The notes below the pieces were generated by a model. That model was given only the letters and a program-made list of their open reading frames with translations. It was not told the DNA's origin and ran no database searches. A stretch of 64,000 bases of DNA from positions 25,605,899 through 25,669,898 of the forward strand of contig OZ316891.1 in NCBI GenBank assembly GCA_973895155.1, in the 5' to 3' direction. The translations under genes were made by a program, and so were the position numbers. Numbering within the stretch: the first letter of the stretch is position 1; every line of letters begins with the position of its first letter. Positions 5,230 to 42,908 of the stretch are shown here, one piece after another. Source of the stretch: Marsupella aquatica. Lineage: Eukaryota > Plantae > Marchantiophyta.

Positions 5230-5690
5230 CGGGTGTTCGGCCAATTGCTATTGGGGAGGTTTTTCTTTGACTTGTGTCTCGCACATTTTCCTTGCAGTTT
5301 TGCTCTGCACTATCGGATCATCTCTCTCCACATCAGTTTGCAGTGGGCGTTCCGGGCGGTTGTGAGACAGTTATTGCGGGTATTTGAGCTACCTTGGACC
5401 TCCACCCTGATTGGGTTGTCCTCTAGGTTGATGTCTCTAACGCTTTTAATACGGTTTCTCGGGCAGCCATTTTTCGTGCTTTGAAGGTGGCGGATCCAGA
5501 CATCCAATCCCTGATCCCCTTTGTCCGTTATTTTTATGGACTCAAGGCCCCACTCTTCTATAGTCATCACTCCTCTACAGGAGTGTATACCACTCTTTCT
5601 TCTGCAGAAGGTACACGTGATGGTGACCTCTTGTGTGGGCCTCTTTTTGTCATTGCCCATTTTATAGCTTTACAAGAAGTCGCTGTCGTG
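5230..5690 (+). mobile_element. Fragment of a CRE-like non-LTR retrotransposon, N-terminal half of the reverse transcriptase (degenerate)
   Basis: Translation gives QFAVGVPGGCETVIAGI*ATLDLHPDWVVL*VDVSNAFNTVSRAAIFRALK...FVRYFYG..APLFY...SAEGTRDGDLLCGPLF: the RT motifs D..NAFN and G..QGDPL. Confidence 0.8.
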
Positions 5691-5771
5691 GGGATTCTTT
5701 GTTTAGTAAGTTCCTCCTAAGTATAGCTTAGTAGTATAGGATAGTAGTTTGAATTCTCGCATTATATGTAG

Positions 5772-6282
5772 TCTATAGTGTGCATGCTATAGTGCATGAC
5801 CTACAGTGTGCATGCTACAGTGTACAATCTACAGTGTGCATACTATAGTGTACGGTCTATAGAGTGCATGCTATAGTACATGGTCTATAGTATGCATGAT
5901 ATAGTGTACGATCTATAGTGTGCATGCTACAATGCAAGACCTACAATGTGCATGCTACAATGTACGATCTACAATGTACATGCTACAGTGTACGATCTAC
6001 AGTGTGCATGCTACAGTGTACAATCTACAGTGTGCATGCTATAGTGTACGGTCTATAGAGTGCATGCTATAGTGTACAATCTACAGTGTGCATGCTACAA
6101 TGTATAATCTACAGAGTGCATGCTACAGTACACGGTCTACAGTATGCATGCTACAGTGTACAATCTACAGTGTGCATGCTACAATGCAAGACCTATAGTG
6201 TGCATGCTACAGTGTACAATCTACAGTATGCATGCTATAGTGTACAATCTATAGTGTGCATGCTACTGTGTACGATCTACAG
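5772..6282. repeat. Minisatellite, 28-bp unit (CTACAGTGTGCATG-CTACAGTGTACAAT; two related 14-mers), ~18 copies
   Basis: Directly visible. Confidence 0.95.
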
Positions 6283-6499
6283 TTGCTCCACTCACGTAAC
6301 TACAGTACTAGCACACTTACTTGCCTTGGGATGTGTGACACATGGCTTTCATCCGTGTGCCATGCTTGATCCGTGTGCTTGAGGTGTGAGCACTATAAAT
6401 AAAGAGGAGAGGGGCTCTCTTCCCTCACTCTATATTTTTTTCATCAACTGAGTTGTGAAGCCTTAAGAATCCATTGGACTTGATGACCTCCTCTATAAA

Positions 6500-6770: not shown

Positions 6771-6886
6771 TTCATTCAAAAGAAGATAAACTTATTAAGA
6801 TGAACATCTGCATGTATATACTTAGAGTTAACTCAATGCACAATATTTGTTTGAAATGAATGATCTTTTCGTTGAATGATTCTAAA

Positions 6887-6918
6887 CACAGTGACGGACC
6901 AAACGAGAAGTGTGACCA
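6887..6918 (+). repeat. Left terminal inverted repeat
   Basis: CACAGTGACGGACCAAACGAGAAGTGTGACCA, followed by an inverted subterminal TACTTCTCGTTT copy. Confidence 0.88.
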
Positions 6919-7228
6919 TACTTCTCGTTTTGCCCGCGGCGAAAAAAATTTCTAAGGCAAAAAAGTCTTGGATACGGAATTAGTATTCCCCCTAAAAACT
7001 AGTTTTTTGGTTTCAAAAATGGGAAAAATCGAAGTGAATACGAAGATGGGATACGGCGTATCCCATCTTGGATCCAACCGCGGAATTCCCCCCCAAAAAA
7101 AAATGCAGTAAAAGTGCCGATATTGTTTTACCTGTTAAGAATATTCCCATACGAGTCTTCTCAACGGTAACATTTAACCGACTGCGCTGCAATTGCAGTC
7201 AAATACTAACCACGGTCAGGGAAAAAAC

Positions 7229-7236
7229 TATAAATA
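7229..7236 (+). promoter_or_regulatory. Putative TATA box of the first cargo transcript
   Basis: TATAAATA, then a CT-rich leader and a CAG|GTGAG donor at 7356. Confidence 0.45.
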
Positions 7237-7384
7237 GGAGATCCCCGCTTGAAAATTTTCCGCTCATTTCTTCTCGCTCTCTATCCTCTTCCTCTCGACG
7301 AATGCCCACCGTCTATACAAACTCGTATTCCCTAAAAATCAGATTTGACTAACAGGTGAGAATCTTCATGCAAATGGCAAGGAC

Positions 7385-7860
7385 GAATCCCAAATGGGAT
7401 ACGGCGTATCCCGTTTGGGATTCAACCTTCAAATATCCAGTTTTTGTTTCTGTTTAGTTAAAAAAGGAGGTTGGATGCAAAGTGGGATACGAGGTATCCC
7501 ATATCGCATCCAACCTCCGAATATGAAGTATCTTAGCCTCCAAATGTCAAAACCTCAACGTTGAATGCGAAATGGGATACGGCGTATCCCGTTTGGGATT
7601 CACCCTTCAAATGTCCAGTTTTGATTTCTCTTTAGCTGGAAAAGGAGGTTGGATGCAAAGTGGGATACGGGGTATCCCATATCGCATCCAACCTCCGAAT
7701 AATAAGTATCTTAGTCTCCAAATGTCAAAACCTCAACGTTGAATGCGAAATGGGATACGGCGTATCCCGTTTGGGATTCAACCTTCAAATGTCCAGATTT
7801 GGTTTCTCTTTAGCTAAAAAAGGAGGTTGGATGCAAAGTGGGATACGACGTATCCCATGT
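7385..7860. repeat. Palindrome array 1: ~178-bp tandem unit with two palindromes each (6 palindromes, ~89-bp spacing), inside predicted intron 7356-7922
   Basis: Alternating GAATGCGAAATGGGATACGGCGTATCCCGTTTGGGATTC and GGATGCAAAGTGGGATACGnGGTATCCCATATCGCATCC; a further single copy at 7043-7069. Confidence 0.92.
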
Positions 7861-8019
7861 GGTATCTCCCTAGAGTTTTCTTGGCATGGGAAAAATCTTA
7901 TGGATTGCTGATTGTTTCGCAGGCGAAGTTCAACTAAACATGCACTGAAGCTCTTGCTGCCTTTCAGTGACTCAAGCTTTTGCTTTCCTGGAAAAACAAC
8001 GTTTTCTCTTGTGAGTCTA

Positions 8020-8346
8020 ATGGCGGTCCAGAATCAAGACCGTGAGAAACGTGCTCGTCGATTGTATAAGCGATTAGTTGCACTCAAAGTTCTCCGTCCT
8101 GGATTAGGAGCGCTATGGACGGGAGGCGTGGATCCACATGATAGTTTGAATCCACTCCAAATAGAGTTTTGTGAAAAAAATGAAGACGGAGTTTCGATTC
8201 GGTCGAGGATATGTTTGAGTGGTTGTCTGCACTCTGTTAATTCTTCTTGTAATTATTGTCGTGATGCCCGAAACAAATATCATCGATTAGCATATTTGTG
8301 TTGTCGGATTTGGAACGAAGATCCTTGGGTTAACTTATTGCGTTGA
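8020..8346 (+). CDS. Small basic Cys/His-rich transposon protein of unknown function (~108 aa)
   Basis: ATG at 8020 follows the acceptor at 7922; MAVQNQDREKRARRLYKRL...CLSGCLHSVNSSCNYCRD..YHRLAYLCC. ORF is intact. Confidence 0.5.
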   Translation: MAVQNQDREKRARRLYKRLVALKVLRPGLGALWTGGVDPHDSLNPLQIEFCEKNEDGVSIRSRICLSGCLHSVNSSCNYCRDARNKYHRLAYLCCRIWNEDPWVNLLR

Positions 8347-8561
8347 ATCTTCTTGATTAGTGTGTAAGTGTTTAGGTGAACGTTCTTGGGTCAAAACTTT
8401 TTTGAATATATTTTTCTTTTGATCAAAGAAATAAAATCAGTTTTTCCATCATTATTTTGTAGGTTGCAGAGAAAGTGCTCACCATCTCATTTATTACTCC
8501 AGGTATCCACCCTTGTTTTGGAATGGCCGTCACTGAGAACCCTGTCTTTACAAGGTTAGCG

Positions 8562-9092
8562 ATGTCATTCGACATAGAGAAGAAACAAATTCAGTAGAAA
8601 AGTGGCCAAAGGGAATTCAAATTGCTTTTGGATGGACTTCCTGATGAGATTGTTGAAACGTTCATTTGGCCCATTTTGAAAGTTTGTTGTATAGAGGATG
8701 AATTTGATTCCTCCAAGAACCAAGCTGATGAAAGATTGATGCAATTAAAAACAATGGTGTGGCTTGGATGCACCTCCAAGAAATGGAACCAGCTCGTAAT
8801 TTGTACACGAGTTTGGGGTACTCTTAGACTAGCAAGAAGCCAGTTTGAGGAAGTAAATGAAATGCTAACAAACATTCCCAATGGAAAACCCCTTCAGAAT
8901 GTTCATATTGAAGCTTTTGTTAGGATGGAAACACCGAATCTTCCTCCAATCGATTTCTTAGGTTTATTTTCAAGGTCTGACCTAAATTGATTTCAAGAAG
9001 ACTGGCACAATCTTGAGAAAGATGAGCAAGCAAGGCTCTTGGAAATGTATGGGGAAGCTTAGAGCTTTATTTTGTGGCACAATTCCGGATGA
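8562..9092 (+). pseudogene. F-box-like protein, interrupted by in-frame stops
   Basis: LLDGLPDEIVETFIWPIL...LGCTSKKWNQLV...VW matches the F-box pattern (LP.E+...I; ..V(S/C)K.W..L....+W). Stops at ~8595, 8988 and ~9060. Confidence 0.6.
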
Positions 9093-9227
9093 ATAAAGAG
9101 TTTTGTGATTCTACCCTTACATCAACCCCATTTGCTAAGCGTAAAATCTATTTGGTTTAATCCAAGGACATGGGGATATGCCTAATCTAAATCTAGTCAG
9201 AAACAAAGTCCTATCAAGCAAAAAAAG

Positions 9228-9235
9228 TATAAATA
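9228..9235 (+). promoter_or_regulatory. Putative TATA box of the ParB-MTase-Ulp1 transcript
   Basis: TATAAATA, then a pyrimidine-rich leader and a CAG|GTAAA donor at 9442. Confidence 0.45.
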
Positions 9236-9483
9236 GACCTCCGGACTCCAACCCTTCGCTTTTGAATTCACCTTATCGCCTGTGTCCTTGGATTAAACCA
9301 AATAGATTATCGCCTTATCGCCTGGTCAGAAAGTGCACGCTCATTTCTTTTCCTTCTCAACTCCGTTTGCCTTTGCGTTTTTCTCGGGCCGCAACATCTC
9401 TATAGCTTTTTGTATTTGCTCGAATCGAAACAAAAAAACAGGTAAAACCTCAAGAAACTCTCCCCTCCTTGGCGCACTTCATT

Positions 9484-9998
9484 GTTGAATCCTGAGTGGG
9501 ATACGTCGTATCCTCATTTGCATTCAACTCTATTCTTTGCACTTCTATTCGAAGAACAAAACTTTTCAATGTTGAATACGAGATGGGATACCGCGTATCC
9601 CATCTCGCATCCAACACCCTCTTTTTAGTATTCCATCGGAACCTCCTGGCTGTTTGTTGACTTTGAATACGAAATGGGATACCGCGTATCCCATTTTGGA
9701 TTCAACTACATCTCTCTGGTCTTTTATTGCAAAGTACTAGAAATTCCTGATGTTTAGGGTTTAGCGCCTTTGCGGAGGATCATTGCAAAAATAGCCGCAT
9801 TGGATGATGTTGGATACAAACCGGGATACCCCGTATCCCATTTCGCATTCAACTCCCTATTTTTTGTTCTTTGCATTAGACTAGGCAATTGTTGATGTTG
9901 GATGCAAAGTGGGATACCTCGTATCCCATTTCGCATTCAACTCCCTATTTTTTGTTCTTTGCATCGGACTCGAGGCAATTGTTGATGTTGGATGCAAT
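9484..9998. repeat. Palindrome array 2 (5 palindromes plus a truncated sixth)
   Basis: GTTGAATnCGAnATGGGATACnnCGTATCCCATnTCGCATTCAAC-type copies at ~9490, 9572, 9665, 9810 and 9898; the next copy breaks off at TTGGATGCAA (~9998). Confidence 0.9.
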
Positions 9999-9999
9999 A

Positions 10000-12900
10000 A
10001 GAAACTGGATCGACGTGACATCCAAAAGGTTAGCGCGCACCATCTGCACCCGGAAGTGTTGTCTCATCTTTGGTCCCAACAATTTTATAGACACCATCTC
10101 AGATTCCTTCAACTTTGTTAGGTGGGCCTTCTCTATCATCTAGGGGTGCTGTGAAAGAAAAGAAAAACAATTCAACAGATATCACCACAGCTTTGCAACG
10201 GGAAGAGACACTTATGGTTCGTGAAGAAGTGTCTCGGTTGATGGAGACCAAGAGCGTTCAGAAGACAACTGTTATTCTGAAAACAACTAACCTGCTTCTT
10301 GTTGACGATATTGACGACAAGAACTCAACATTGGTTTGAACAGTAGATCGGTTGCATGTGGAGAACATCAAGACTTTGATGAAAATGAATCCAACAAATT
10401 TCACCACGCCATTTGTCTTGTTTGTGATCCCCGAAGACTGCCCGATAGTGACAGACTGGGACCCAAAAAAGGCAACGAGCTGGAGATATCAAGTGATTGG
10501 AGGTAATCACGGTGCTCGAGCTAAGAGAGAATTGTATCAGGCTTATGGGAGAGAGATCTTCAATGAACTCCAAGCTTGGGTGTATGCTGGTCTCACAAGG
10601 GAGGACATTCAGAAACTTAGCATCCAACATAATATTGATCAGTAGTACAGGAAAAAAATGAACAACATTGATCAAATCCGAACAATGCATAAGATTTTCC
10701 TTGCCAGAGGTATGGCAAAAACCAAGGAGACTAGAGAAGCGTGTGCGATGGAGGTTTGCCTCGACGGGTTTTTTCCGGGGGACGCCACAAGCCTAAAGAA
10801 GCATGAACCTCTCTTCCAAATTGCGTTTAGGTCGGGTAAGGTCTAGGAACTCCAAGACCAGATCTTTGAGATGTGGAACAAGTTGGAGATCAAAGGGTAG
10901 AATAAGCAGAAGTCACCGATCAAGAAACTCAAGAAAAAAGGAAAAGTGCAGTTGATTCCAAAAGCTTTGAATAAGCTTGCAGGGGGCCTTACCCTGACAC
11001 CTTGGAGAGCAATCCAAGGAATTGAACACGACTAATTTTTGGAGTCCCTTCTTCTACGAGTGAAGGACCGGATGATCTCTTTGGAGCAGATGGCAAAAGA
11101 AGCCAAGAGTTACAAGAAACTTGTGAAAATCAACACGCTTTTTGTTCAGTTATCAGGGCAGCCAGACTGGGCAACTTGCAAACAAATGTTTCCAAAAGAA
11201 ACAGAATCTGCCGAGCTCGAAAGATGGAGTGGGAAGTTGTCTGATGTGGTATGTTCTCCCCTTCCATTGATTGGACTTTTCTTGGATTCACTTGTGTTTA
11301 TTTGACGTTTGTGATGTTTCAATGAGGTTTTTGCTTGGTCAAATGCAAAGTGGGATACGGCGTATCCCATCTCGGATTCACTTGTGTTTATTTGACGTTT
11401 GTGATGTTTCAATGAGGTTTTTGCTTGGTCGAATGCAAAGTTGGATACGCGATATCCCATCTCAGATTCACTTGTGGTTATTTGACGTTGGTGATGTATC
11501 AATGTGGTTTTTGCTTGGTCGAATGCGAAGTGGGATACGCGGTATCCCATCTCGGATTCCCTTGTGGTTATTTGACGTTGGTGATGTTTCAATGTGGTTT
11601 TGCTTGGTCGAATGCGAAGTGGGATACGCGTATCCCATCTTGGATTCACTTGTGTTTATTTGATGTTGGTGATGTTTCAATGTTGTTTTTGCTTGGTTGA
11701 ATGCGAAGTGGGATACGGGGTATCCCATCATGGATTCAATTGTGGTTATTTGACGTTGGTGATGTTTGAATGGGGTTTTTGCTTGGTTGAATGTGAAGTG
11801 GGATACGGCGTATCCCATGTCGCATTTGTCGTCCAGATTTGATTGTTTGAATGCCCAAATAGTTCTCCCCATTGTCTTTTCTCTGGATTCTTTTAACAAG
11901 TTTGCGTTTGCAGTTGAAAGCTTTTTTGAAGAAGAAGAACAAGGATGCAATTGGTGCCAATGCGGTTGAGAAGCCTTCGGAGGAGCTGACTTTGAGTGTT
12001 ATTCCCCCGGGGTTTAAGAATTATGTTCAAGAAGCGATTGCGAACTACAACCGTCGTCGTGGGATTGAAACAGTTGAAGCAAAGTCGAGTGACCATCGAT
12101 GGCGCTGATAGAAATTTCATCAGATATACATTGCATTGTGGAGATGTTAGGGCGTTGGATAAGTTTGTAGAGAAAAGGAATTACACACTTGCAATTGCAG
12201 ACATTCCCTATGGATTCAATGCGTCTGGCTCCGAAAATGATGAGGTCCCATTTTCAGAGAGTGATATTGTGGATATGGTGAAGTGTTTTGCCAAGGTGAC
12301 AAGTTCAAAGATGTGGAGGTTTGTTGTGATTCACTTTTTGCAGCACACTTGGTCTATGATGAATGCCCTGGGAAAACTTGTAATGCAGGTGTAGAGGCTG
12401 GAATTTGGAAGAAGCCAAATGTACATGCTCATCCTTCGGGGAATCGATTGGCTTGGGCTTTTGAAAACTGGTCAATCGGATATTATCACGAGAGTGGTAT
12501 TAGGACCAGAGACATGTACAATTTTGAACATGATGAGAAAAGGGTAAACATCATAAAAGTCCCTTGTGTTACAAAGAAATGTGTAACACCATTGGGGGAA
12601 ATAGTGAACCCTTACCAGAAGCCGATAGCTCTAGCAGATTGGTTCATTCAACATTTTAGTGAAGCAGGGGATTGGGTTGCTGATTTATGTGCGGGGAGTG
12701 GTTTGACCTCATGCGCTGCCTTGTTAGGGAAACGTCCGGTGACAGCCGTGGAGCTCAGTTCAAGCCAGGTGGATTGTATCCGGACCCGACTTGTCACGCT
12801 GGATGAATCGTGGGACTTGAATGATGAAGCAACAGAGGAGGGTACAAGACCCATGAGCTTCGAGGTTCAACCACCTATTGGTGGTACTACGAGCACCCTG

Positions 12901-13992
12901 ACCACTGGAACTTGCATCATTACAACCGCGGAGGAGAACGACAATGATGAGGATGAAGAGAATGAAGTGGAATATGAAGCTCCGACACTTGATCTTGGCT
13001 CATTCTTTGAGGTGTAGACTTTAGTTTCATTAGTTCTCTCATGTTGTATCTATTGATCCAAACTTGTGAAATATTGAGGAAGATTATGATTGGACTATGT
13101 TCTTATTTCACAAAGTAATGTCTTTGCAGGAACCAAAGGAGGATTTTTTATTGAAACATGTTCTGCATAGATTCTCACACAATCCTTCTAGTGGGTTTCT
13201 TTTGGACAATAAAATATTGAGCCAACTTGAACCCGGTCAATATTTGGGTGATGAAATAATAGAATTTTATCCATAATTAATAACCGAGGAACATGGAGAT
13301 CTGGCTTCCTCAGTAAACACATTATCCTCTTTTTTTTACCCTTGGCTTGTTTCAAGGATTGAAACAGAACCAGCTGAGATCTTGTTGGAATCAATTCAAA
13401 AGATGCGGAATTATTACAAGCCACCATTTTCCCAAATTGAGGTCATTCTCATGCCAATTCACATGAACATGCACTGGAGTCTGGTTGTAATATGTTTGGA
13501 TCGGATTGAATCTTCGATCAAAATGTATCATCTAGACTCTCTTGCCGGTCTACACTCAACCCATGTAATTGGATCAATACTGAGCAGGTATGTATATATT
13601 CTATTACATTTTTTCCATTTTAAATTATTTATGTGGTATATAAATATAAACACTTTGGACTAAGAACTTGAATGATAATTTGCAGATATTTTACAATGGA
13701 ATGGGAATTATTTTTTGGAAAAGTTCCAATGGGAGTTGTGGAGATATACAATCCAATGGTAAGGATTTGAAAAGTTATTTCAACTTTTATTTAGTTCAAT
13801 TATTAAACACTTTGGACTAACTTTAAGATTCTTTCTCAGGTACCTCAACAACCAAACAATTCAGATTGTGGTCTATTTGTTCTTCAAAATATGGACAAAA
13901 TCAGAATTCAATGGCATATTACACAATGCCTTGATGCACAGTCTTTATTTACTGAAAATGGTACAATTGTAAAAGAGCATGTAACCTTATAA
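10000..13992 (+). pseudogene. Spliced ParB/Srx-like + beta-class N6-adenine/N4-cytosine DNA methyltransferase + acidic linker + Ulp1/C48 SUMO-protease fusion
   Basis: ORFs 10115, 10352, 10658 and 11039 share one frame (LV*TVDRLHVENIK..., YQVIGGNHGARA). Intron 11249-11913 is phase 0. MTase motifs LHCGDV, ADIPYG, WKKPN, NPYQKP and DLCAGSGLT..VE (two frameshifts). Phase-0 intron 13012-13129 joins SFFE to EPKE..LEPGQYLGDEIIEFY. Ulp1 motifs HWSLVV, LDSL and QPNNSDCG span introns 13588-13685 and 13759-13839. Confidence 0.8.
11285..11830. repeat. Palindrome array 3: six ~90-bp tandem units inside intron 11249-11913
   Basis: Unit GGATTCACTTGTG.TTATTTGACGTT.GTGATGTTTCAATG.GGTTTTTGCTTGGTCGAATGC.AAGTGGGATACGnnGTATCCCATCTC. 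Confidence 0.95.
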
Positions 13993-14012
13993 AATTCATT
14001 CGAGATCAAATT

Positions 14013-17000
14013 CTAAAATTGATGCATGTACCTGTTTAAGGACATCAATCTCAATCCTCTGAGTGTGCAGAGCCTCTCTAATATAGCAGACTCTATAATT
14101 TTTTTAGTTTTTGCTGCTATTTGATTAGTACTTAAAAACACAAAGTTGTATGTATACACCGCTGTTGATGATAAAAGTAGTTCATCTTGGAGAAGTTGAT
14201 TAGATATATTATCTTTCTCTGGAAAATATTTCCCATCAATAGCAGACTTAGCACTTGCCTCAGTTGTGTACCATGTGATTTTGATCCTCTTAGGAATGTC
14301 TGCAGTTCTTGTCAAAATCTTTGACACCTTTGCCATCCAAAACAACTTGCCTTCTGGATCCTTGTGGGCCGCTACACATATCATGGACCACTTATTGTTA
14401 ACTTCCATATCTCTGAAATCTCCAAATTCAGCTTGCTTTCGTCAAGGTCCGGAGTACATAATTCTCTGTGGTCCAGCAACTTTGTCAACCAAAGTTGGAT
14501 CAACACCTTCTTCAACAAGTTCATTTCTCACCCTTCGAAGTGTTGCACCTTGATTTTGTTGCGGCCAAACCCACTCAAATAACCACTCACCTTCCTCTAG
14601 GTGGTTTTTGATAATATCTTTTTGTTTCTCAAAAAAACTCATCCACCAAAGTTTGTCTTCATTGTCAACGTAATTGAAACCTTCCTAAATAGCTTTTTCA
14701 TATTTCACGAGAGTAGTTAACGCACCATCTATATTGGAAGAATCATGGACATCATCCCTCTCAACACCTTTTGCTGACTTCAGTGACATTTGTGCAGCAA
14801 CCCACATTCTTGAAGTTGGAATGTAATTGACAAACGTCACTGCATCTCCCCAATCCTGGGTTGTGGAAAGATGTTTCCCGTGAAATGTTGTCTCTTTGTT
14901 TCCATCCTCCATGACTCGTTTGAATCTGAATTGTCTTTGAAAAGTTATGAGATTGAGATCTCACAAGACTCTACCTGAGACTCCCTTCTCATTTGGCTGG
15001 TCGGTTTCATCGACAAATTTTCGAAAATTGGCTACTTCATCCACAAATATGATCAAAGCTTCAGGTGAATATGCTCGTCGAATAAATCCTCAAGAGTCTC
15101 CAAGCGAAATGCTTTGTGCTTGTTTAACCTAGATGAAAATTTACTAAACATCTGATCTATCTGGTCATGTGTATGACCGACCAACAAGAAACCCACTTTA
15201 ATCTTGTCAAAAATCTTCAAATCTATTAACATGTGAAGATAAGCCATCAAGAATTTATTCTTGTTTTCCCTAGTGGTATTATCTAATTGAAGATATAACA
15301 CTCTTGGTAATGTCCCATCCCATGTATTCAATACATTTTGAATAACATGTATGGTCAAGTTTGCATCATTATGGATATTGGGATATGTCAAAAATACTTT
15401 TGCTGCAAGGTTCCTGTTGAAGATGAGACAACCTACAACATGTATTGGAATGAAATATTTTTCATCCATATTCTTCGGACAACGAAGAAAATGTGGTAGC
15501 TCTGTTTTCTTTTGATCCATACCATCTATACAAATACCCAAATACTTGTTGGGTTCATCATAGCATTTGTTACGATGTTTGGCTAACTTCATCCTTTCCA
15601 ATGATTGTACTTTTCGATGCTCCATAAGGCATTGATGTACTTTCCTGAAATGATACAATAACAATGAATCAAAAATCAATAACTAAGGATAAACTTTGAC
15701 AAATATTGAAGTACATGTCATCAATTAAAGTTTAAAGGTTGTAGTTAGTGGTGCTTACTTTTATCCTCTTTAGTTGTTGCTTTGTCCCGAAGAGCCTTGA
15801 ATTCAGTACAAGGACCACAAGTAGAAAATCGACTTCTTTTAGGTATTCGTACATTTGGAAACTTTTTTTTCCAAACACGCAAAAAATAAGAATATGTAAC
15901 TTGTTGTTCTTCTCGCAACATTGTTTCAACTTCAAAGATTCCATGTATCTCTTGCTTTGTCCAATTGTTTGGCAAGTGATGAATCTCTTTATGGGGAAGA
16001 CTATCCATATTTTTTTGGAAATTTTTTTCAACCATTCCACCAGGTTTAGAAATGAAGGTGATTTTTCCTTACAAAAGGTATCTCGTTCAATCCTTGTAAA
16101 CATGTTTGCATGGATTGTTGCCAATCTATTATTACCTAAAGAATATAGTTTCTTGAATCCTCCTCTACATATAGGTTGTCCATTTACACTATATCCACGA
16201 GAAGTACTACTACTGTTCATGATATAACCCCGTAGCAAAATATTTTTCTGCAAGTGTTTAAGATCAAAATAATACTTACGTTATTTTGAGCATTCCTCTA
16301 GACCTAGAGACCTCAAGCAAAACTTGTCATAACAGGGATACTTAAACATATCTTTAATTTTGCGTTTTTTTAGATTTGCAATGGTAAGTCTATCTTTTCT
16401 AATCATCTGATCTCTGATTTTTTTGCTGGGTCTTGTCACCTCTACTCTATCCTGAATAGTGCCGGGAGAACTTACCCCCCCACTATTTTCTAGTGAATTA
16501 GAATTCAAAACAAAAAGATCTTCTGTAGAGTTGTTTCCACTCTCCACATTTTCTGTAACTGTTTCATGAACAATCTCACATCCCAAGATCTCTTCAACAA
16601 CATTTGAGATTATAGCAATCTCTCTGTCATTTGCAACTGCCTCTGATCTCTCTTCAGAGTCTTTAGAAAATGTAATAGGTGTTCGGAGATTTCTAGTTTG
16701 AAATCTTCTAATGATATTCACATCATCAGTCGTAGTACTGCCCACTTGTCTCTGAGACTGTAATCCCAGCCTAGGTGATTGTTCTCGACTTGAGGGCTCA
16801 TCTTGACCATTGAATAATCTTTGGACAAGTTTCAATTTAGCATGTACCCTTGAATTTTCGGGCCCTCTCTCCGGCAGCTCACTTTGCAACAATCTCCGAG
16901 GAATTTTCTGGACACTAGATCTCTTCCCTCTTTTGTTCTGCACTTGCCGTCCAATGGAAGATCCAAAAACCTCACACTGCATCCTCGCCAAAGGGCTTCG

Positions 17001-17914
17001 AAGCCCCATGTTGTTAGTTTGACCATTTGGTGAAATAACCGATGGGAATACCGATTGGGATCCATAGATCCCAACTCGTATTCGTCCTTCGGGACTTCGA
17101 AGTGAAAACTTTCCCACTTGCTGTTCTGCATCATGACGTGGCAATTTTCTATTGCGCAATACAAACTGGGATCCACGTATCCCATTTCGCATTCCACCAT
17201 TGGAACTCGGGTTGGAAGTCCGCAAGACCGGTGACTCGGGCACAAGATTCTGCAAAATACCACGAGGGAATACTAAGTGGGATCCATGGATCCCACTTCG
17301 TATTTGACCCATGGAATTTGGTACTGAAAGAGACGAAATAGGCAATTCGCGTTCACCGTTTCTCAACATTTGAGTAGGGAATGGATCCCACTTGGTATTT
17401 GACCCACCAAATTTGGCTCCGAGGCTACCCCTCCCTGCAATTCCGGCACATTTGGACTCCTCATTCGCTCAAACTGTGATTGAACACTGGACACAGCTAT
17501 CTTCACTCCCGGAGAACGAGACATTGGAAAAACCAACGGAGATCTTCGGGCGAGCCTACATGGTAACGTTGTTCTTGGCATTAAAAACCGGGGCCTTCGT
17601 CTTCAAAGATCTGTCGGGGTTCACGGAGAACCAGGTGTCTTTGTCGTAGGAACTACATTAGGCTTCTTTACAAGTAGACGTCGTTTAAGAGGTTTACTTG
17701 GAGAGACATAGTATGAAATTGGAGCACCCACAACACTCCTACAAGACTCTGAATCGGACTCTGATTTCTCAGATTTTGAGGAAAATGAAATCTCTGGCAC
17801 TACTCTCTGTGAGGCTGGTAATTCATTCATCAAACAAGATGGAATAAATTTTTGAACAACATCTGGCGAAGATGCATCTGAACTATAAATTGACTCATCA
17901 CTTGAAGACGCCAT
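14013..17914 (-). pseudogene. DDD/E-type transposase (DUF7869/Sola-like) with frameshifts and introns
   Basis: GICIDGMDQKKT, LQLDNTTRENKN and FLLVGHTHDQIDQMFS catalytic-type motifs; upstream Cys motifs (PC..KFCL, PICRGGFKKLY, FSTCGPC). Serine-rich N-terminus from ATG 17914, with TATAAAA at ~18070. The superfamily name is uncertain. Confidence 0.8.
17040..17410. repeat. Four ~110-bp-spaced variants of the palindrome (GGGATCCnnnGATCCC type) within the transposase 5' ORFs
   Basis: Copies at ~17056, 17168, 17278 and 17380; further variants at ~18268, 18330, 18418 and 18654. Confidence 0.75.
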
Positions 17915-18984
17915 AGATAATCAAACAAGGGTTGTATAGGAGTACGTATTCCTATCCAACAGAGATACTTCAGATTACAGTATCCTATGAAAACAACTAC
18001 TCAATAGTGAACGAACCTCAAAGTAATCGCGAGAAATGAAGATGAAAAACAAATGCGAGCTCTTCCTTTTATAGTTTTTGGGGGCATTGTACACGTGGCA
18101 TTCCCTGATTGGTCCGTACGAGGGTTTTTTCAAGTGAGAGTTTGTCTTTTCCAGGACTGTTGAAATTTAAATTGTAGATTTTTGAGGAAGTCGTCGTGGA
18201 TCCGAGTTGGTCTTCAAACTGGAATATCAAGGTATGCAATGCAAAAACTTCAAAATGTAGAGGTTCATGGATCCCATCTAGTATTCATCCTCCTGTTTTC
18301 CCGATGAGTTTTTGGACTTGCAAAAAAAATGGGATCCATGGATCTTAGTTGGTTTTCATGTCGAAAGATCTCCTGATGCAAAGTTGCAGGTGGAAAACAT
18401 TGAGGTTGAATACGAGAGTGGATACTTGGGTCCCGTCTCGTATTCTCATGGTTATGGGCTAAAAAAATTCCGAACATGTCATCGGGTTAACTTAACTAAC
18501 TGTGTGGGTCAACTATAGTCCACGGTTAGTTTTTCGCAGTTTTCCGGGTTACCGTAGTTAAAAATTCAAATATTTTTAACCCGAGGTTAAATGGAAGCGT
18601 CAAGAGAACGATTTGGTGCGGTTTTTGTCCACGTTCAACAGTTGAATCCGAAATGGGATACGTCGTATCCCATTTTCAGTTTGCCATTTTGAAGGCGAAA
18701 ATGAAATCTTGTGTTTTCTTCATTTTGTTTGACTCTCGAATTTAGCTTTTAGAGGATCACGTGAAAAACATTGTTTTTCTAGGTTTTGGAATTTGCCCTT
18801 TTTTTAGATGAAGTGTATCGGAATTCTGGATTGTAACAATTCTTTGTTTTTGTGTCAACAGTATCTTGATTTGAAATCCGATGTTGGATGCAATTTTGGA
18901 TTCATCCTCAAAATAGCGTTTTTGATCTTAATTTTAGTGATTTTTTGCCGTTTTTGCGAAATCAAAAACACACTTCTCGTTTGG

Positions 18985-19016
18985 TGGTCATACTTCTCAT
19001 TTGGTCCGTCATTGTG
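18985..19016 (-). repeat. Right terminal inverted repeat
   Basis: TGGTCATACTTCTCATTTGGTCCGTCATTGTG, preceded by a second CACTTCTCGTTTGG subterminal copy. Confidence 0.88.
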
Positions 19017-19554
19017 TTTCTATATCTTGTCATTAGAATGAATATTAGTTGGATAGAATATTTGATAGTATGATAATGCCCAGACCAGTACCTGTTCTTC
19101 CTCTCCCTAATCCTTTCCTTATTAGAATTCATGTACTCCAAAAAGAGATCATGCGTCAGCATATGACTTTTCACTTTGGAGAAACATTTGCAACTGCGGT
19201 GTTAAATTCAATAGAGCCGATTGTATACCCTTATGTAGTTTATGGGCAAGATTGGGCTTGCACAATTTTTATCTTGTATTGAGATGGATCTCAACAAACC
19301 TCCCTCCGATGAACCTCCCGTTTCTTTTTCATTGGGAGATATTTGTTTTGTAACTCGACCCAAGGTAGCTGCCAAGAAGGCAATAGTCCGTAGGTATGGA
19401 GAAAAAGGTTATGATGTTGTGCTTTCATCCACAGAACCATTCATTGTGGTGTCTGCTACCCAGTCTAGAATAATAATCATGATCTTAACTTAAGTTCTCT
19501 CTTGACACTAGCAGCCATAGGCCCGGTGCTTCCTCAAGAATCACATTTTCCCCC

Positions 19555-21470
19555 AGACACCGCCATGGCCCACCCCCAGTGTATCTTCCCCTCCCTTTCA
19601 GATGACACCCACATCATTGGTCCTCCTGCCGCGGTTACTTTTGCCCTCGCCACTCTTTCCACCCATTTGATGGGCCTTGGTTTACGAGTTCAGCCTATAA
19701 AGAGTCATGCATGGAGTCCAGCTGGGTTACCCTCTGATCTTGCGCTTCCCCCAGGGTTCTTACGTCCAGCCGCTGGTCTTCGGGTCCTTGGCTCCCCAGT
19801 CGGTACCGCCTCCTTTTGCTCATCTTTCATCGTTGACTCTTTACAGGCTGCCTTAGCCCCTACTCCTATGCTCCCTAAGTTAGCAGATTCTCAGGTAGCA
19901 TTTGGGATGTTGTTGAGGTGCATCCACCCTCGTGCGTCTTATCTGGCTAGGACACATCTCCCTACCGAGGATCTTTGTCTCCACCTTCAAGCATTTGATG
20001 TCTCCATTCGTGAGACTTTGGCCTCTCTTTTAGGGCCGGGTGCGTTGCTCTCATCTTCATGGCTTCATCGATAATTTGGTCTTCCTATTTTGCAGGGTGG
20101 TTTTGGGCTTACTTCCATTGAGAGCCTTGCACCTTTGGCCTTTTTGGGTGCGTGGGCGACGGCCTTCTCATTGTTGGCCGATCGTTTCCTTATTGCGGAT
20201 TGCCCTTTTCTACTTTCATCTCTCATGGAGGTAGAGGAGGGTTCCCTCCCATTTCAGGTTCATTTGCGCGCAGCGCGGTCATCATTACCAGATCCCGTTC
20301 GCATTGCGTTACCTTCTTTTCAGGAGTTTTTATCCTTGGATCCCGTCTATCTTCAGGCAGACCTCGGTGGGCGTATGCAGCTTTCACCCTTTCCAGCATC
20401 CTCTCCGAGGCACCTGATACGGACCGAGCTCAGATTCTTTCTTCCAAAGGGAACGACGCAGGAGGATGACTTCAGGCCAATCCTGTCATTCCTCATTTGC
20501 GGATGTCTTCAACGGAGTTCTCCACAACCATGCATCTTTGTATGGGGCTGCCCTACCCACTTCTTGCAGGTTTACCTCCTTCTTGGACTTGTGGGAAGCC
20601 TTGTGATGCCACAGGTGTCCATCTTCTTTGGTGCAGTTTGGGAGGTGAAACCATTATTGTTCACGATGTTGTGCGAGATGCGACTGCTCAGGTTCTCTCT
20701 GGCTCTTTGGTATGCGTGAGGCGGGAGGTGCTTCTCGAGTTACCTGGTCCTCCATCACAGCGGTTACGGGTGGATCTTACCATGGTCCATGAGGGTCAAC
20801 GTACTTTGGCAGATGTAGTGGTGGCAAACCCATTGCGCCAAGACATCATTGGGACAGCGGCAACAACGGCAGGGGCAGCAGCATCACGTGTGGCAACAAC
20901 GAAGGAGGCCAAATATGCTGCACAAGCTTCATCCGACAACTTCCTCCCCCTTGCTCTGGAGCTATTTGGGCGTCTTCATCCTCAGTTTGATGAGCTTCTT
21001 CGGCAAGCTGCCCGGGATGTTCATGGCCGAATGGGTCCCACCGGACCCCCGCTTTCTGTTTTGACCACGAACTTTTGCCAACGCATTTCAGTCACCTTAC
21101 AGCGTGCTCAAGCTTGGGCCATCTATCGTCGATCTCTTATAGTGGGTGCTAGTGTGCCTCCGCAGCAGCTAGCTCCCCTAAAGGATGTTCCAATCCCACT
21201 TGCCGATCTAGTTTTGACCCTTGATGTGGACCATTAGCTTTTTGCCACATTTGCTAGGAATGATGAGGACCTCGGTCCGTTTGGGTTAGTTTTAGTCTCT
21301 CTTTCTTGGTTTTTAGGGGTTCCCTATTGCTCATTTCTTACTTTTAGTTACTCTTTCTTGGTGTTTAGTGGTTCCCTTTTGCTCACTTCTTTTATGTTTG
21401 GTTTTGTCCACTTGGACCCTCTTTTGTTTGTTCATTTGTACTCTGTCTGGTCCCTTCGTATAGAAAAAGT
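19555..21470 (+). mobile_element. CRE-like non-LTR retrotransposon, 3' part (RT C-terminus, CCHC finger, restriction-like endonuclease), frameshifted
   Basis: PSLSDDTHIIG (YxDD-like), LRVLGSPVG, GGFGL, CGKPCDATGVHLLWC, HDVVRD, RVDL..TLADVVV, KEAKY, FLPLALELFG; T-rich 3' UTR. Confidence 0.85.
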
Positions 21471-32800: not shown

Positions 32801-35028
32801 TTTCATCATAATCAAAGACTTTGGGATTGTCCTTGCCACTTACACCATTCTTCATATCTGGAATTGAGAGTAACGTGTCAAACAGGCAAACCAAGCAGAC
32901 CTCAAAGAAAAACTATGTTCATCATGCTCTATACTTAAAGTTCTTTCGAAAACTAGTATTATAGCCAAGTAACTGATTTCCTAAATGCCAAGGACAGCAA
33001 GATTTGGTTGAGATGATTTAAGTATTCAACACAACGGTGGAGTTTATTGATTCAAGAGAATAAGTCTACAGCAAAGTTGGATGAGTTGCACCGTTGCTTT
33101 TTAATATGCCGTTTCGGTGGGCAATGCTCCGAGGTCTTCACACGATTAATTAATTACCCTCACATTCAATTTGAGGATTCATTTTACAGCAAGGTAGAGA
33201 GCAGCAACCTCTCACGCGTAACGAGTGGTCAAGCACCCAATCAGAAAATTTGAATCGGGAGGTACATGTTGCAGATAGATAACCGTAAAGTTTGAAACAG
33301 TATGAGATGTGCACATAATTCTTACCATTGAGTGATAACGAAGAAACAGGATGCTTGCCGTAGAAACTGCTCTCGTCATAGCTCCAAGGGCCACATTGAA
33401 CCAGACTCTCCCGTGTACTCCACGACCTTTGAGAGAGGGCCCTACTAGAGGACGCTCGATCATCATAGGAGCTGCTACTTGGAGATCGAGGATCTAAAAG
33501 CCGCTTCCTGTTTTTGTAGCAAAATAGTTTCCTATTCTGGAGAAAAAATATGAGAGAAGCGACGGCAGCAATAAATAGCAAGGCAGCCAGCACGATGCCC
33601 ACGATGCTCCCGAAACCGATGCTAGTACTTGCGCCTGGAAGATCTGCGGATGCATGATCCGAGAAGATATACAAAACAAAAGTGAGCTATGAACCATTCT
33701 CTACTCAGTGATCCGGCCAGTTCGGTCGGTGGTCTACAAAAACATGTCCATTTTACTTTAGATTCTCAAGTGACAAGTTATGAGTTTTCCCCCACATCAA
33801 GATGTAAAGACTTTCCGCAAAACATAACACCGCAAGTCCCCGCACAAGTCGCCACAGATAAGAGTTTCCGACCATAGCCTGATAGACTCATCGTAGTTGT
33901 CTCATCAATTGGTTCTATAATAAATATCTGCGGAAGGGGAGCATATCTTACCAGGTGCAACATGAGGTGGAACAACAACGGGTTTAAGTGCTGCACAGTA
34001 CAGGCCAATAATACCATCGTTAAAAGAACTGAGGTGATGGTGTGTCGCCATTCCAGCCCCTTTCGGGATAGCCGTTAAAACTACTTTTCAAGACATTTTT
34101 TCCACCTAGACCTATGACATATATTCAGCGCTTACACTGACTGATCCAGGGAAGTACTTCGAGTGACATGATAGGGCCTAAAGAGATTATCGTCGAATGC
34201 CAAACTTGACGACTCTGACATAATATCTGTAGTTATATCGGTAACAATTCATTATATTATCCCATTAAGGACGCCATCCACGACCTGCAACCATTCTTCT
34301 TAACGTCGTCTACATCAATAACATCATGATAGCATAAACTATTGTACTGGTTGAATCCGGATAGGTGTACCTTCCGAAAAGCTGAGAGAAAACCTCGTTA
34401 CAATCCGGTACCAATGTTACTTACCAGAATCATGGATAGGAATATAGTATGGCGTTTGGCTCGCTAGATAATCTTGCTCCATTATACCATTGATGTTCAT
34501 TATTGTCGCCGTAGAGGTGTTGAAACGAATTGCCAGGCGCTCCAGCGTATCGTCATGCTGGATCACGTATGTTAATAGAGGCTGTCCCAGGGAAGCGAGG
34601 CATCCACAGTACAGATCTACTTGCAAAAGCTGGCCATCCGTAAGGCTTTGTTGCATATTTGTTATGCGGGCCAGATATTCATACGGTCCCGTGGCTATAG
34701 AAACTTCCGTGTCTCCAGCAGTTACCCTATAGGCTGCCTCCGCCAAGTAGGTGAAGCTATCCGCACACAAACATTGGAGGGAAACTATCACTACACCAGT
34801 TTCAAAGTTGGTATCCTCTCGCGTAATTGCATCCTGCGAAACGGAGAACAGAGTTGCCACAGAAGCCAGAGTATCCGAATCACGACGCGTATAATATAGG
34901 TATGCCGGACAGGAGCTCCCCACTGCGCTGCAAGTCATGGGACCCTTCAGCTGGCATGAAACGTTTGAAACGTCCCTTAACAACATGACTGTGACTACGA
35001 GTAGACATATCGAGGAAGAGGCGGCCAT
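29868..35028 (-). CDS. LysM receptor-like kinase, LYK3-like
   Basis: Signal peptide; CxC-separated LysM ectodomain ([17 protein letters not shown]); [17 protein letters not shown]; kinase [32 protein letters not shown]; C-terminus [19 protein letters not shown] resembles LYK3. Confidence 0.9.
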
Positions 35029-37600
35029 TTCACTTCGCTAGCTGCAGATTGGCCTGCTCGTCATTTATTTATTATGCCTCAGAGAATGTCAGCATTGTTC
35101 GTTCGGCAGCTTTGAGAAATTCCCGTTTAGGACAATTTTGGCATCAGAATCAATCAGTACCCGACGTCTCTTAAGACGCGGCTGTCACATCCAACGCGTC
35201 CATAGAAAATTCTGCCAGAGCTGTCCACTTTCGTCCCTGTACCGTAGCATCGATTCGAGCCTTCACGTCAATAACAATCGCGGAACTGTTCGTCCACCGT
35301 CTGAGGTTCTGGAGTGAGGGGGAAAGGAGAGATCGAAACAGACTGGAGGCAGACAGAAAAATTCAGGAGGATGTTCCTGCCAATCAGGGATCTATCCATT
35401 GCTTTTTTCGTCGACCAGAACAGCCGCTCAAGGTCTTTCACTCCAATGCAAGGAAACTAAGGTAATCCATCGCCAACGCAAGAATTTGAATCTCACTCGA
35501 GACAGACAGACACAGGAAGCCTCTGAACGCAGGAAACCCGGCGGGAACCCCCAGACTGCACCGCATCCCTCTGCATGGAAAGGTCGACGTGATGCCAAAA
35601 TCTGGGGGACGGTCTTCTGTTGACCTCACTGGTGACGAGAAACTGTATATATAATGCTGTGGTAGGAAGCAGCTCGCGTGCAGTCATCCACATAGCTTCG
35701 ATTGGCTGCAAAGCCTTCTTTCGTCCCGACCAATTCCCACTCCGGAGTCCGAAGAGGGCGTGCATGTTAGATGCATGAGCTTGGCGCACACCAGCAAAGC
35801 ATTGGTCAGGCCATCATGAGTCGTTTCTCTTTCCTCGTTATTGAATCCACAATCATTAATTTCTCGCCAATTCAACTGTAATGTGTGTGCCCTCTCGACA
35901 AAAACGTACAGTACTACAATATCGTTATTGGTATGTTTATTGCTGTGCGCTTCCATTACTCCCTAGTTGCGCATCAGCAGAAATCAGATAGGGGAGACGA
36001 ATACTGTAGATCATTGTACCGTAGCGACAGACATCTGCGCGAGATCGACACGCATTGATTTCTTTCGTTGCCATCCGTGAAGGTCCCCGGCCAGACGATT
36101 CGAAATTCATCATGACTGGAATAGTCTCGTCAGTCGTCACGACAGCACTGCACTGCACGGCATGCTCTGCCTCTTATCCACCCTCGTCGAAGTTCTGACT
36201 CCTACGTACTGTCTTGTTCACCTAATATCGAACGGACCTTTTTTTTCAAATTGCCTCGATGGCTGGAATTCTCGACCATCAATCTGTAATAGGTAGTGTA
36301 TGTTCCCTCGCGACACAAAAGCAGGGAACTTCCATGACCATACGACCATTACTGGTCAATTTCTCATCACGAGAATGTGATCAGGGGAATGATTGTACCT
36401 TCGTGACAAACAGCATCGGTCTCGGTGTACCGGTCGAGCACGCATTGATTTCGTTCGATGGCACTTGTCTACCTTAGGGTCTGACGACGCGAAGTAGATG
36501 ACTGTAGACCTTCGATGTCACAGGAAAATCTTTAGGGCTGACGACATGAAATTGATCTACTGACATACATTTCATCGATCACGCATTGATTTCTCGATGT
36601 CATCCGTCATCGGTGAATGAATTTCCCCGTCTGAGGACTACTGGAAAGAGGAAAGAGGAAAGAGGAAAGAGGAAATTGGGTCCGTCATGAATGAAAACGG
36701 AAAAAGCTCGTCAGTCATCATTACAGTACTCTTCCCTCTTTTCAGAATGCGCTTCCGTGGAGTTATCGTGAGGGGTTAGGAGTACGCACCTCCCACCCCT
36801 GTTTTAGAGTTCTCACTCGTATTCTCAATATAAGGTAACCAGGCCCGTGACCAATGAGGTTTGGTCACAAAAGCTGAATTCTTGCAAATGCTTCTCTTTA
36901 ATATTGTATTTTGTAAAATCTTATGCACAGAGATTATATGCACAGAAAAAAAAAGGAGGCATTTTCGGGCCCCCTCACAAAGCTGAACTGAAAGTTCAGC
37001 CAATGAGGGTCTGGTTTGGGATTAATAACCTGTAATAGTGAGACCAGAAAGTGAAGTTAATTAATTTGACTGGCTGTAGTTGGGAAATTTTTCTCAGCTT
37101 TGGAGCCAGGTTCAAGCTAGAACCCTTGCCCAGACCTCCACTACAGTACACATTGGATAGGAAAGTTACTTTCAGGCAAGAAATTATGGGAAATAGCAAG
37201 TATCTCCCAATATGATTACACATCAGCAACCTACATTCAGTGTACAGAAATTACAACACACTCCATTTATTTTCTAGAGCCCAAAAACTTGTGTCCAGGT
37301 AATTGCACATCAAAGTGTGACAATATATGGTGTAAGATGCCACTTCATACCATAATAAACCCAAATATGTTGTTTAAATATTATCTGGCTATGGGATTTT
37401 GATGTGCAATTAACAGGAAACCAAAAACTTTGGTAGAGGTACCATCTAGTGCTAGGGGGTTACAAACTAGTACTAGTGTTGGTGAGTAAATTCTGTATGG
37501 AATACAGGCTATGGGTTGGTAGCCATTTTTACTCAAGGCTCCTATTCTCATAATGTGGTGCTTGCAAATGTGCAGCCAGGTAATAGTTTTTTGGACAGAA

Positions 37601-42000: not shown

Positions 42001-42908
42001 ATCATCATGCTAATTTGCTAATTCTTGTCACTAGCCTGAATGCACATCCTTTGAATGTTAATAGGAATGACGACTCATTCTTTTCATTTGCAAATTTTGG
42101 TGTGGCCCTAGTCACTGTTTAGAGGCCACTGTTTAGAGGCTTCACTACTCTAGCTTTATTAGAAACATGAAAGGGGGGCATTCATGCTCGTGGGTATCTG
42201 CAGTTGAGAGTGCAAAAGTCCAACAAAAGGAGCATAACATTATCGATCCAGTCTCCTTCCGTGGGTCTGCTGGGTGACAATTCAGTAGGTGTGGCTCCTG
42301 CGTCGTCGACCCATCTATCCTTACCTTTCGGTACGCAGTAACCCACCATTCTCGTCTTATCTTATCTCGTCCCCAAAGACATGAAAAAAACTTGTTATCT
42401 AAACTGTACTGCTCTCTCTCTGTCTGTCCGACCGAATCCTAGACTCTATGGTGATCAGCAGCACGATCTGGATTTCTATGGATGGAGTACGTTGCTCGAA
42501 CTGACATCTGATTCTGTTCCATCGCATCTGATTCTGTTCCATCGCTTCGAAGAAACATATGATACCTTCATTGTTCGAACGCTGACGAGCCAATTCGCCC
42601 CGCTCCTGACTCTTAATCAATGCTCACTCCTAGCTCTTTTCTAGCTGAAGAGCTAGAAATGAGCTTTTCAGCTACGGTCGTGCCTTCGGAAAGAGTGGCT
42701 TATCATCTAGAGTAGAGTTGCGTAGACCATTGAGTGTCTTTGTGCCTCGAAGATTTCACAGAATTCCATTCCAATTATTGAGTCTCTCCGTATGTCTCGG
42801 CATTTTGATTGTCGACGATTATGTTCTTTCGGCTTCTCCAGCAGCGAAGGGAAAGAGTGAGGAGAAGAAGGAGGACGAATTGATTCAGAGACAGACAGAC
42901 AGTCGAGA

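What the first reader, a model, noticed from the sequence alone, without database searches (positions are those of the whole stretch)
6887..19016. Large TIR transposon encoding its own epigenetic toolkit (ParB-DNA amino-methyltransferase-SUMO protease, F-box) plus arrays of a candidate cognate palindrome
Seen: 32-bp TIRs enclose a DUF7869/Sola-like transposase, a convergent ParB-MTase-Ulp1 gene, an F-box-like gene, a Cys-rich ORF and about 25 copies of one long palindrome that I did not see elsewhere in the window. Known: Arabidopsis VANDAL Mutators carry a Ulp1-like gene and VANC anti-silencing factors that bind repeats arrayed in their own non-coding DNA. Bacterial-type amino-MTases are rare in plants, for example the Marchantia N4C MTase. 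Inference: this could be a self-recognising, self-marking transposon system that loads on its own palindromes, writes 6mA/4mC and counters SUMO/ubiquitin-based silencing. I do not recognise this combination as described.
Basis: partly seen in the sequence, partly recalled or inferred. Interest (0 to 1): 0.93.

Follow-up and report, generated by a model that had tools for sequence, protein, structure and literature searches.

The report
Plant transposon carrying ParB-methylase gene
This is a decayed copy of a 12-kb plant jumping-gene family that carries a bacterial-type DNA-binding and DNA-methylating gene plus 24 mirror-image DNA sites, which that protein likely grips and marks to keep the element active; the design was proposed for seaweed transposons in 2025, and this extends it to land plants.

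Summary
A 12,134-bp element (6885-19018) has 34-bp TIRs and a probable 4-bp TSD (TCTA), read from an empty site in public runs. It encodes a DUF7869 DDD transposase and a convergent gene for ParB (Foldseek/VIA: ParB, Noc, KorB) plus a beta-class amino-methyltransferase (DIPY), spliced in frame to Ulp1. It also has an F-box-like ORF (weak support) and 24 palindromes, all non-coding; none was found elsewhere in the window at the same stringency. This copy is broken; related copies lack three checked stops. ParB-methylase beside a DUF7869 transposase recurs in two metagenome contigs and in adjacent Riccia gene tags. Homologues occur in Chara, ferns, Ginkgo and marine animals. Ulp1 is absent from the related loci, so it is an add-on here. 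The core idea is already in print: Ectocarpus Sola1-1_Ec32 (PMC12477816) and Bostrychia Plavaka elements. New here: land-plant members, the Ulp1 fusion, and three families with mutually exclusive palindrome cores on one 18-bp half-site frame, varying with the predicted recognition helix. Binding, methylation and anti-silencing are untested. Verdict: new variant of a known kind.

The parts
6881..6884 (+). left copy of the probable 4-bp target site duplication TCTA
   Evidence: empty-site joint 6879->19018 in runs X3 and X4; sequence. A 2-bp CT reading is not excluded
6885..6918 (+). left TIR, 34 bp, followed by an inverted second copy of its 15-bp inner motif (to 6931)
7048..7856 (.). palindromes: 1 subterminal (7048) and 6 in the predicted first intron after TATA-like box 7228
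8020..8346 (+). Cys-rich ORF, 108 aa, no family
8523..9062 (+). F-box-like ORF with an insertion in the motif; two stops in this copy, of which the one at 8595 is a sense codon in other copies
   Evidence: weak; no hit
9498..9927 (.). 5 palindromes in the predicted first intron after TATA-like box 9227
10091..11248 (+). ParB-like exon (N-terminal ParB/Srx domain, helical DNA-binding region, C-terminal helices); 5 stops in this copy
11249..11913 (+). predicted phase-0 intron holding 6 palindromes in 88-90 bp tandem units
   Evidence: the same intron holds repeats in L001-L005
11914..13011 (+). beta-class amino-methyltransferase exon (DIPY, then DLCAGSG) with acidic tail; two frameshifts in this copy
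13130..13992 (+). Ulp1/C48 protease in three predicted exons (13130-13587, 13686-13758, 13840-13992), in frame with the methylase, His-Asp-Cys present; one stop in this copy
14013..17914 (-). DUF7869 DDD transposase gene (DGMDQ, QLDN, GHTHDQID), Sola1-like, with introns; several stops and frameshifts in this copy
17057..17294 (.). 3 palindromes in the predicted first coding intron of the transposase gene
18331..18671 (.). 3 palindromes upstream of the transposase TATA-like box (18074)
18985..19018 (-). right TIR, 34 bp, preceded by a direct second copy of its inner motif (18969-18983)
19019..19022 (+). right copy of the probable TSD TCTA

Best explanation
A decayed copy of a multi-copy, 12-kb cut-and-paste transposon carries a ParB-methylase-Ulp1 gene whose protein likely binds, as a predicted dimer, the element's own palindromes and likely methylates adenine there, which would keep the element's three promoters open against host silencing. 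Shown: TIRs, empty site, gene content, ParB and methylase folds or profiles, placement of all 24 sites in non-coding DNA, and family-specific cores. Inferred, in falling order of confidence: the ParB helix-turn-helix reads the palindrome (about 0.65); the enzyme writes a mark (about 0.55), 6mA more likely than 4mC because motif IV is DxPY, with the invariant A at half-site position 15 as candidate target; the effect is VANC-like anti-silencing (about 0.45); the spliced Ulp1 removes SUMO from nearby silencing factors (about 0.3). A CTP-gated sliding clamp is not assumed.
For: Cargo is stable: ParB exon, repeat-filled intron and methylase exon keep their order in 5 of the 6 loci fetched; the convergent transposase end follows in the 2 that extend far enough, L002 and L003. 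Riccia sorocarpa R1sor_010796 (ParB plus methylase) and R1sor_010795 (DUF7869) have adjacent tags on a contig of the same length. The model matches ParB N-terminal domain (Z 11.4, rmsd 2.3, 98 aligned) and the two-domain KorB (Z 10.2, rmsd 4.3, 200 aligned); ParB-family proteins bind palindromes (established knowledge; also stated). Three repeat families have mutually exclusive cores but one half-site frame, (G)AAT-N9-GA-NN, 18 bp. The predicted recognition helix is KRD[ST]LS[KT]HDH in L001, L003 and L004, which share a core, and differs in L005 and the window. The TIRs carry a different motif, so the transposase has a separate candidate site. Arrays sit in introns and terminal DNA, where VANC21 binds its motifs. 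Motif IV is D-x-P-Y in 35 of 38 proteins where the pattern was found (the set is weighted towards close relatives).
Against: No binding, methylation or expression data. This copy cannot make the proteins. The last Arg of the ParB GxxR motif (recalled as needed for CTP binding) is kept in 2 of 64 homologues and not in the window. The match to isolated DNA-binding domains is weak (Z 5.0 and 4.4), and Pfam HTH_ParB hit 1 of 38 proteins, below cut-off. The helix-repeat link rests on three families, follows relatedness, and the helix region is barely more divergent than the rest between L005 and L001/L003 (61% against 64-68%). With palindromes masked, the first and third array introns are CpG-depleted like the exons (0.44, 0.56), so there is no footprint of protection from 5mC. 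Animal homologues have DMP in place of DxPY. Some D-motif enzymes make 4mC (recalled: M.BamHI). L005 sites are asymmetric, with the outer motif on one arm only.
Confidence: 0.5

Rival explanations
1. ParB binding and the methyl mark control transposition mechanics, not silencing: they would organise or pair the ends of a long element, time its jumps, or protect it from self-insertion.
For: Sites lie near both ends (7048, 18655) as well as inside. ParB/Noc/KorB are DNA-organising proteins. No CpG footprint of anti-silencing. Dam control of IS10 ends is a recalled precedent.
Against: 20 of 24 sites are more than 700 bp from an end and follow promoters into introns, as VANC sites do. The TIRs have their own motif.
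Confidence: 0.2
2. The transposase, not the ParB protein, binds the palindromes and acts as the sequence-specific activator; the ParB-methylase is a passenger or co-factor.
For: Transposases can activate cognate copies sequence-specifically (abstract only). Transposase and repeats also travel together.
Against: The TIR motif is unrelated to the palindrome. ParB genes sit with inverted-repeat arrays in a different superfamily, Plavaka/EnSpm. L006, a more distant methylase locus with no ParB exon or transposase match in its 2 kb, shows no array.
Confidence: 0.12
3. The ParB part binds the sites but the methylase is a catalytically dead scaffold, and any effect comes from occupancy or from fused modules such as Ulp1.
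For: Animal homologues have a degenerate motif IV. Motif IV is DIPY, not canonical DPPY. Earlier unchecked scan notes could not confirm a methylase in two protist elements.
Against: All 12 full-length close homologues aligned keep D[IV]PY and a motif I of the DLCxGxG type (one has N for D); 110 columns are invariant. Some relatives have DPPY.
Confidence: 0.13
4. The palindromes act as RNA hairpins or are relics of tiny insertions, with no protein reading them as DNA.
For: Most lie in introns. In pooled L001-L004 the spacer positions pair more than permuted arms (138 against 113 of 245).
Against: In the window the spacer positions pair no better than permuted arms (98 against 92.7 of 168, p 0.11). 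L005 arms mismatch next to the centre in every copy. Pooling loci confounds the L001-L004 result. The fixed spacing of two short motifs is kept while sequence turns over. No Rfam match.
Confidence: 0.05

Closest known systems
Sola1-1_Ec32 of Ectocarpus (PMC12477816; passages and supplement rows seen)
   Same: Giant TIR element; ParB-like plus N4/N6 methyltransferase gene on the strand opposite the transposase; termini begin AAC; 4-bp TSD biased to end in A; authors propose self-binding and self-modification
   Different: 21.5 kb with 282-bp TIRs, brown alga. The passages and rows seen mention no Ulp1, F-box or palindrome arrays. Sequence identity to it could not be tested
Plavaka (EnSpm) elements of Bostrychia with PAG2 and PAG3 (10.1101/2025.02.11.637652; passages seen, supplements closed)
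   Same: ParB-like accessory gene next to tandem arrays of inverted repeats; PF01555 methylase in the same element; same proposed logic
   Different: ParB is fused to a 2OG oxygenase and the methylase to SET, in two genes; other transposase superfamily; red algae
VANDAL/VANC and KIU (Ulp1-bearing VANC) of Arabidopsis (PMC5735166, PMC13317346; passages seen)
   Same: Family-specific motifs arrayed by tandem duplication in introns and terminal DNA; an accessory protein fused to Ulp1 in some families
   Different: Mutator superfamily; 9-bp non-palindromic motifs; VANC has no ParB or methylase domain in the passages seen; function is shown there and not here
Bacterial ParB/Noc/KorB with parS-type palindromes
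   Same: Two-domain fold; dyad sites
   Different: 12-22% identity; GxxR Arg mostly replaced; fused to a methylase; no ParA partner seen
Eukaryotic N4C methylases MpDN4MT1 and bdelloid N4CMT (10.1101/2021.02.12.428880, PMC8885841; passages seen)
   Same: Bacterial-type N6_N4 amino-methylase in a eukaryote
   Different: Host genes with SPPY, not transposon cargo; the passages seen describe no ParB fusion; N4CMT is linked to silencing of transposons

Membership tests
Sola (Sola1) DNA transposons | DDD transposase of RNase H fold | tested here: met
   D323, D404, D446 nearly invariant in 52 rows; best folds RNase H, TnsB, Mos1, all E > 0.001
Sola (Sola1) DNA transposons | 4-bp TSD | tested here: inconclusive
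   One empty site fits TCTA (4 bp) or CT (2 bp). AAC termini and a TSD ending in A agree with Sola1-1_Ec32
Sola (Sola1) DNA transposons | Transposase groups with Repbase Sola1 references | not testable with these tools
   No reference set on hand; DUF7869 appears in no paper of the library; the Sola paper was not held
CMCT clade (EnSpm, Chapaev, Transib) | [quoted passage not shown] | tested here: not met
   The empty site places the ends at AAC or AAAC, not CAC; about 40 residues separate the second and third acidic residue, the third is D, and no C(2)C is conserved
ParB/Noc family | ParB/Srx N-terminal fold | tested here: met
   Z 11.4, rmsd 2.3, 98 aligned to 7bm8; 12 Foldseek hits at E <= 0.001, those listed all ParB or Noc, on homologue L005
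ParB/Noc family | Helix-turn-helix DNA-binding domain after the N-terminal domain | tested here: inconclusive
   KorB aligned over both domains (Z 10.2, 200 aligned); isolated domains Z 5.0 and 4.4; HTH_ParB E 8e-4 below cut-off
ParB/Noc family | GxxR CTP-binding motif (recalled) | tested here: not met
   GGNHG in the window; Arg in 2 of 64 homologues
Beta-class amino-methyltransferases (PF01555) | Motif IV before motif I, profile match | tested here: met
   Pfam above cut-off; DIPY then DLCAGSG; nearest solved: M.RsrI, N4CMT, M.MboIIA, E 0.002-0.006
Beta-class amino-methyltransferases (PF01555) | Methyl transfer to A or C in DNA | not testable with these tools
   needs assay or long-read kinetics
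Ulp1/C48 proteases | His-Asp-Cys triad in profile-matched exons | tested here: met
F-box proteins | F-box profile match | tested here: inconclusive
   no Pfam hit; Atlas F-box 0.94, 141 of 256 shared
VANDAL/VANC anti-silencing systems | Mutator transposase with a VANC protein | tested here: not met
   DUF7869 transposase, ParB-methylase cargo
VANDAL/VANC anti-silencing systems | Family-specific motifs arrayed in non-coding DNA | tested here: met
VANDAL/VANC anti-silencing systems | Accessory protein binds the motif and removes 5mC silencing | not testable with these tools
   no chromatin data; CpG content gave no footprint

The most novel reading that the evidence does not exclude
Streptophyte Sola-like transposons have kept, from charophytes to gymnosperms, a ParB-and-parS-like self-recognition code with an active adenine methylase: each family writes 6mA on its own palindromes, helix and site diversify together, and modules such as Ulp1 are spliced on. 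That would be a transposon-made source of sequence-specific 6mA in land plants and a programmable anti-silencing tool.
Probability: 0.3. Interest if true: 0.85.

Novelty: new variant of a known kind. Interest (0 to 1): 0.52.

Why it matters
The 2025 algal papers proposed, without test, that transposon ParB-modifier proteins bind and mark their own elements. This finding supplies matched protein-and-site pairs from three families with mutually exclusive cores, so a swap experiment can decide the question. It also places such genes in Chara, a liverwort, a fern and Ginkgo, where they are annotated as hypothetical host proteins. If the enzyme is active, it would be a defined source of DNA 6mA or 4mC in plants and a second, independent route to VANC-like anti-silencing.

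Tried and rejected
No whole genome was held, so copies could not be collected and TIR-transposase-cargo linkage per copy was not counted. No RNA holder listed; this says nothing on expression. No relatives in viral contigs and no locus returned from prokaryote genomes; both scans use short patterns and do not locate a donor. The CACAGTG start resembles the RAG/Transib heptamer (recalled), but the empty site and the transposase motifs argue against Transib or EnSpm. CpG content as a footprint of anti-silencing: high values come from the palindromes themselves and from promoter or terminal DNA; rejected as evidence. Hairpin selection in the window's palindromes: not above permutation. F-box and Cys-rich ORFs: no match in the 6 loci or the stored proteins (F-box; six-frame); the Cys-rich query was out of frame and was redone only for Pfam. 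Contig depth was used only as a rough sign of multiple copies. The TSD length from further insertion sites and a dimer model of the ParB exon were not obtained, so both stay open. The tree is the quick version, midpoint-rooted, 28 hand-picked rows; no donor or order of events is claimed. Literature searches that found no land-plant description; led to the algal papers. Subscription journals, Iyer 2011 (cited, not seen), Repbase and preprint supplements were not visible and may hold plant examples.
Full report
Observation. The ends match as stated: 29 of 32 bases at 6887/19016, extending to 34 bp with three mismatches. Contigs of two of four public DNA runs join 6879 to 19018, which gives the empty site. 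It fits an element at 6885-19018 with TSD TCTA, or 6884-19019 with TSD CT; ends at the CAC do not fit. The palindrome core occurs 24 times inside and 0 times in the other 52 kb, against 0.17 in shuffles; a looser pattern found one poor site outside, at 21528. All 24 lie outside predicted coding exons, in seven clusters. Counting clusters, the chance of that is about 0.002.

Gene anatomy. Three TATA-like boxes (7228 and 9227 on +, 18074 on -) each precede a predicted intron holding palindromes. The central gene splices in phase from a ParB-like exon through a repeat-filled intron to a methylase exon and on to three Ulp1 exons; splicing is predicted from sequence only. Pfam supports the methylase, Ulp1 and DUF7869. 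A model of the homologous exon from L005 (44% identical, pLDDT 89.5) matches ParB, Noc and KorB. The transposase family keeps three aspartates, and a fern homologue's best folds are RNase H, TnsB and Mos1, though none at E below 0.001. The F-box call is weak. The Cys-rich ORF is unexplained.

State of this copy. It is decayed: five stops in the ParB exon, two frameshifts in the methylase, one stop in Ulp1, two in the F-box-like ORF, several lesions in the transposase. All 30 bins were covered in 4 of 4 runs. Listed element contigs are mostly about ten times deeper than flank contigs that match without difference (for example 214-320 against 16-25 in X3), a rough sign only. The stops at 8595, 10643 and 14963 are sense codons in the contigs; only 40 of 1741 differences were shown, so the other lesions are unchecked. 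One X3 contig spans 12802-13745, linking methylase tail and Ulp1 in other copies. No contig spans a whole element.

Relatives. The methylase search gave 13 proteins at 56-62% identity. Six metagenome loci were fetched. Five show the ParB exon (whole or its 3' part), the repeat-filled intron and the methylase exon in the same order; in L002 and L003 the convergent transposase end follows directly, with no Ulp1. L006 is more distant and has no array. The ParB exon has 146 relatives among cluster representatives. Of 33 of them scanned, 8 pass the N6_N4_Mtase cut-off and one more hits below it. Named ones come from Chara braunii, Riccia sorocarpa, Adiantum nelumboides, Ginkgo biloba, Holothuria, Haliotis, Ptychodera and Actinia (20 looked up). 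A quick tree groups the streptophyte rows at 94% SH-aLRT, short of the starred level. The host is a land plant, probably a bryophyte; this is inferred from these relatives and from a LysM receptor-like gene in the window.

The repeats. The window, L001-L004 and L005 have three cores that do not cross-match, apart from one loose L005-type hit in the element. All share an 18-bp half-site with AAT at positions 2-4 and GA at 14-15, around a 2-3 bp centre; A15 is present in 97-100% of arms. In L005 the outer motif is on one arm only. In the window the spacer bases pair no better than permuted arms, which favours a protein site over a hairpin; pooled L001-L004 do pair above permutation, but pooling confounds this. 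The predicted recognition helix is near-identical in the three loci that share a core and differs in the other two families. With three related groups this is suggestive only.

Mechanism. The simplest reading is that the ParB part binds the dyads near each promoter and brings the methylase, and here Ulp1, to the element's own DNA. DxPY favours 6mA over 4mC (motif rule as stated). The layout copies the VANC logic, so anti-silencing is my first choice, but CpG content gives no footprint, and control of transposition is a live rival. The GxxR arginine is missing in 62 of 64 homologues, so a CTP clamp should not be assumed.

Prior art. Ectocarpus Sola1-1_Ec32 has the same gene pair and orientation, AAC termini and a 4-bp TSD ending in A, and its authors propose self-binding and self-modification. 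Bostrychia Plavaka elements pair a ParB gene with inverted-repeat arrays. Ulp1 in plant transposons is known from KIU/VANDAL, and it also occurs in one predicted protein with DUF7869 in Branchiostoma. Iyer 2016 lists ParB-HTH fusions to a different, chlorophyte Dam-type clade (passages). My ten searches found no land-plant description. Unchecked notes of this scan report similar elements in animals, a moss-like plant and protists; they are leads, not support. Other papers seen as passages: PMC10741241, PMC5751038, PMC12730594; as abstract and outline: 10.64898/2026.08.24.746577.

Verdict. A real, multi-copy, Sola1-like element and a new variant of a recently described kind. Its value lies in the wide plant range, the Ulp1 splice fusion and the matched helix-site sets that make the published hypothesis testable. 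Interest 0.52.

Noticed in passing
window 5427-5720 and 19469-21237: Two halves of a high-copy non-LTR retrotransposon-like frame (motifs recalled, no Pfam hit). Contigs join 5673/5679 to 19562/19567, so a 13.9-kb insertion splits it: an unknown 1.7-kb repeat into which the Sola-like element jumped.
   Followed up: partly
window 5688-6359: Tandem array of 14/28-bp units inside that outer insertion.
   Followed up: no
L001 643-1689 and L005 393-1208: A conserved 200-aa domain (37% identity between the two, no Pfam hit) plus a low-complexity linker; in L001 it appears spliced in frame to the ParB exon through another palindrome-filled intron. The window's family has no match to it.
   Followed up: partly
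P0264 (Branchiostoma lanceolatum): Ulp1 C-terminal part and DUF7869 in one predicted protein, a second pairing of Ulp1 with this transposase type.
   Followed up: no
P0218 model, residues 695-800: The transposase family has a C-terminal beta-rich domain also present in the window (14013-14441); not identified.
   Followed up: no
P0110 and P0054: ParB-like domain joined to a weak Tudor-like hit in four Haliotis species, and to a SAM domain in another protein; possible domesticated forms.
   Followed up: no
window 34417-35037 (-) and 42861-43523 (+): Host genes: LysM receptor-like ectodomain and DHBP synthase.
   Followed up: partly
window 17057-17294 and 18331-18434: Palindromes on the transposase side are a sub-type with a 2-bp centre and mostly GGATCC cores, unlike the 3-bp, GGATAC type elsewhere.
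   Followed up: partly
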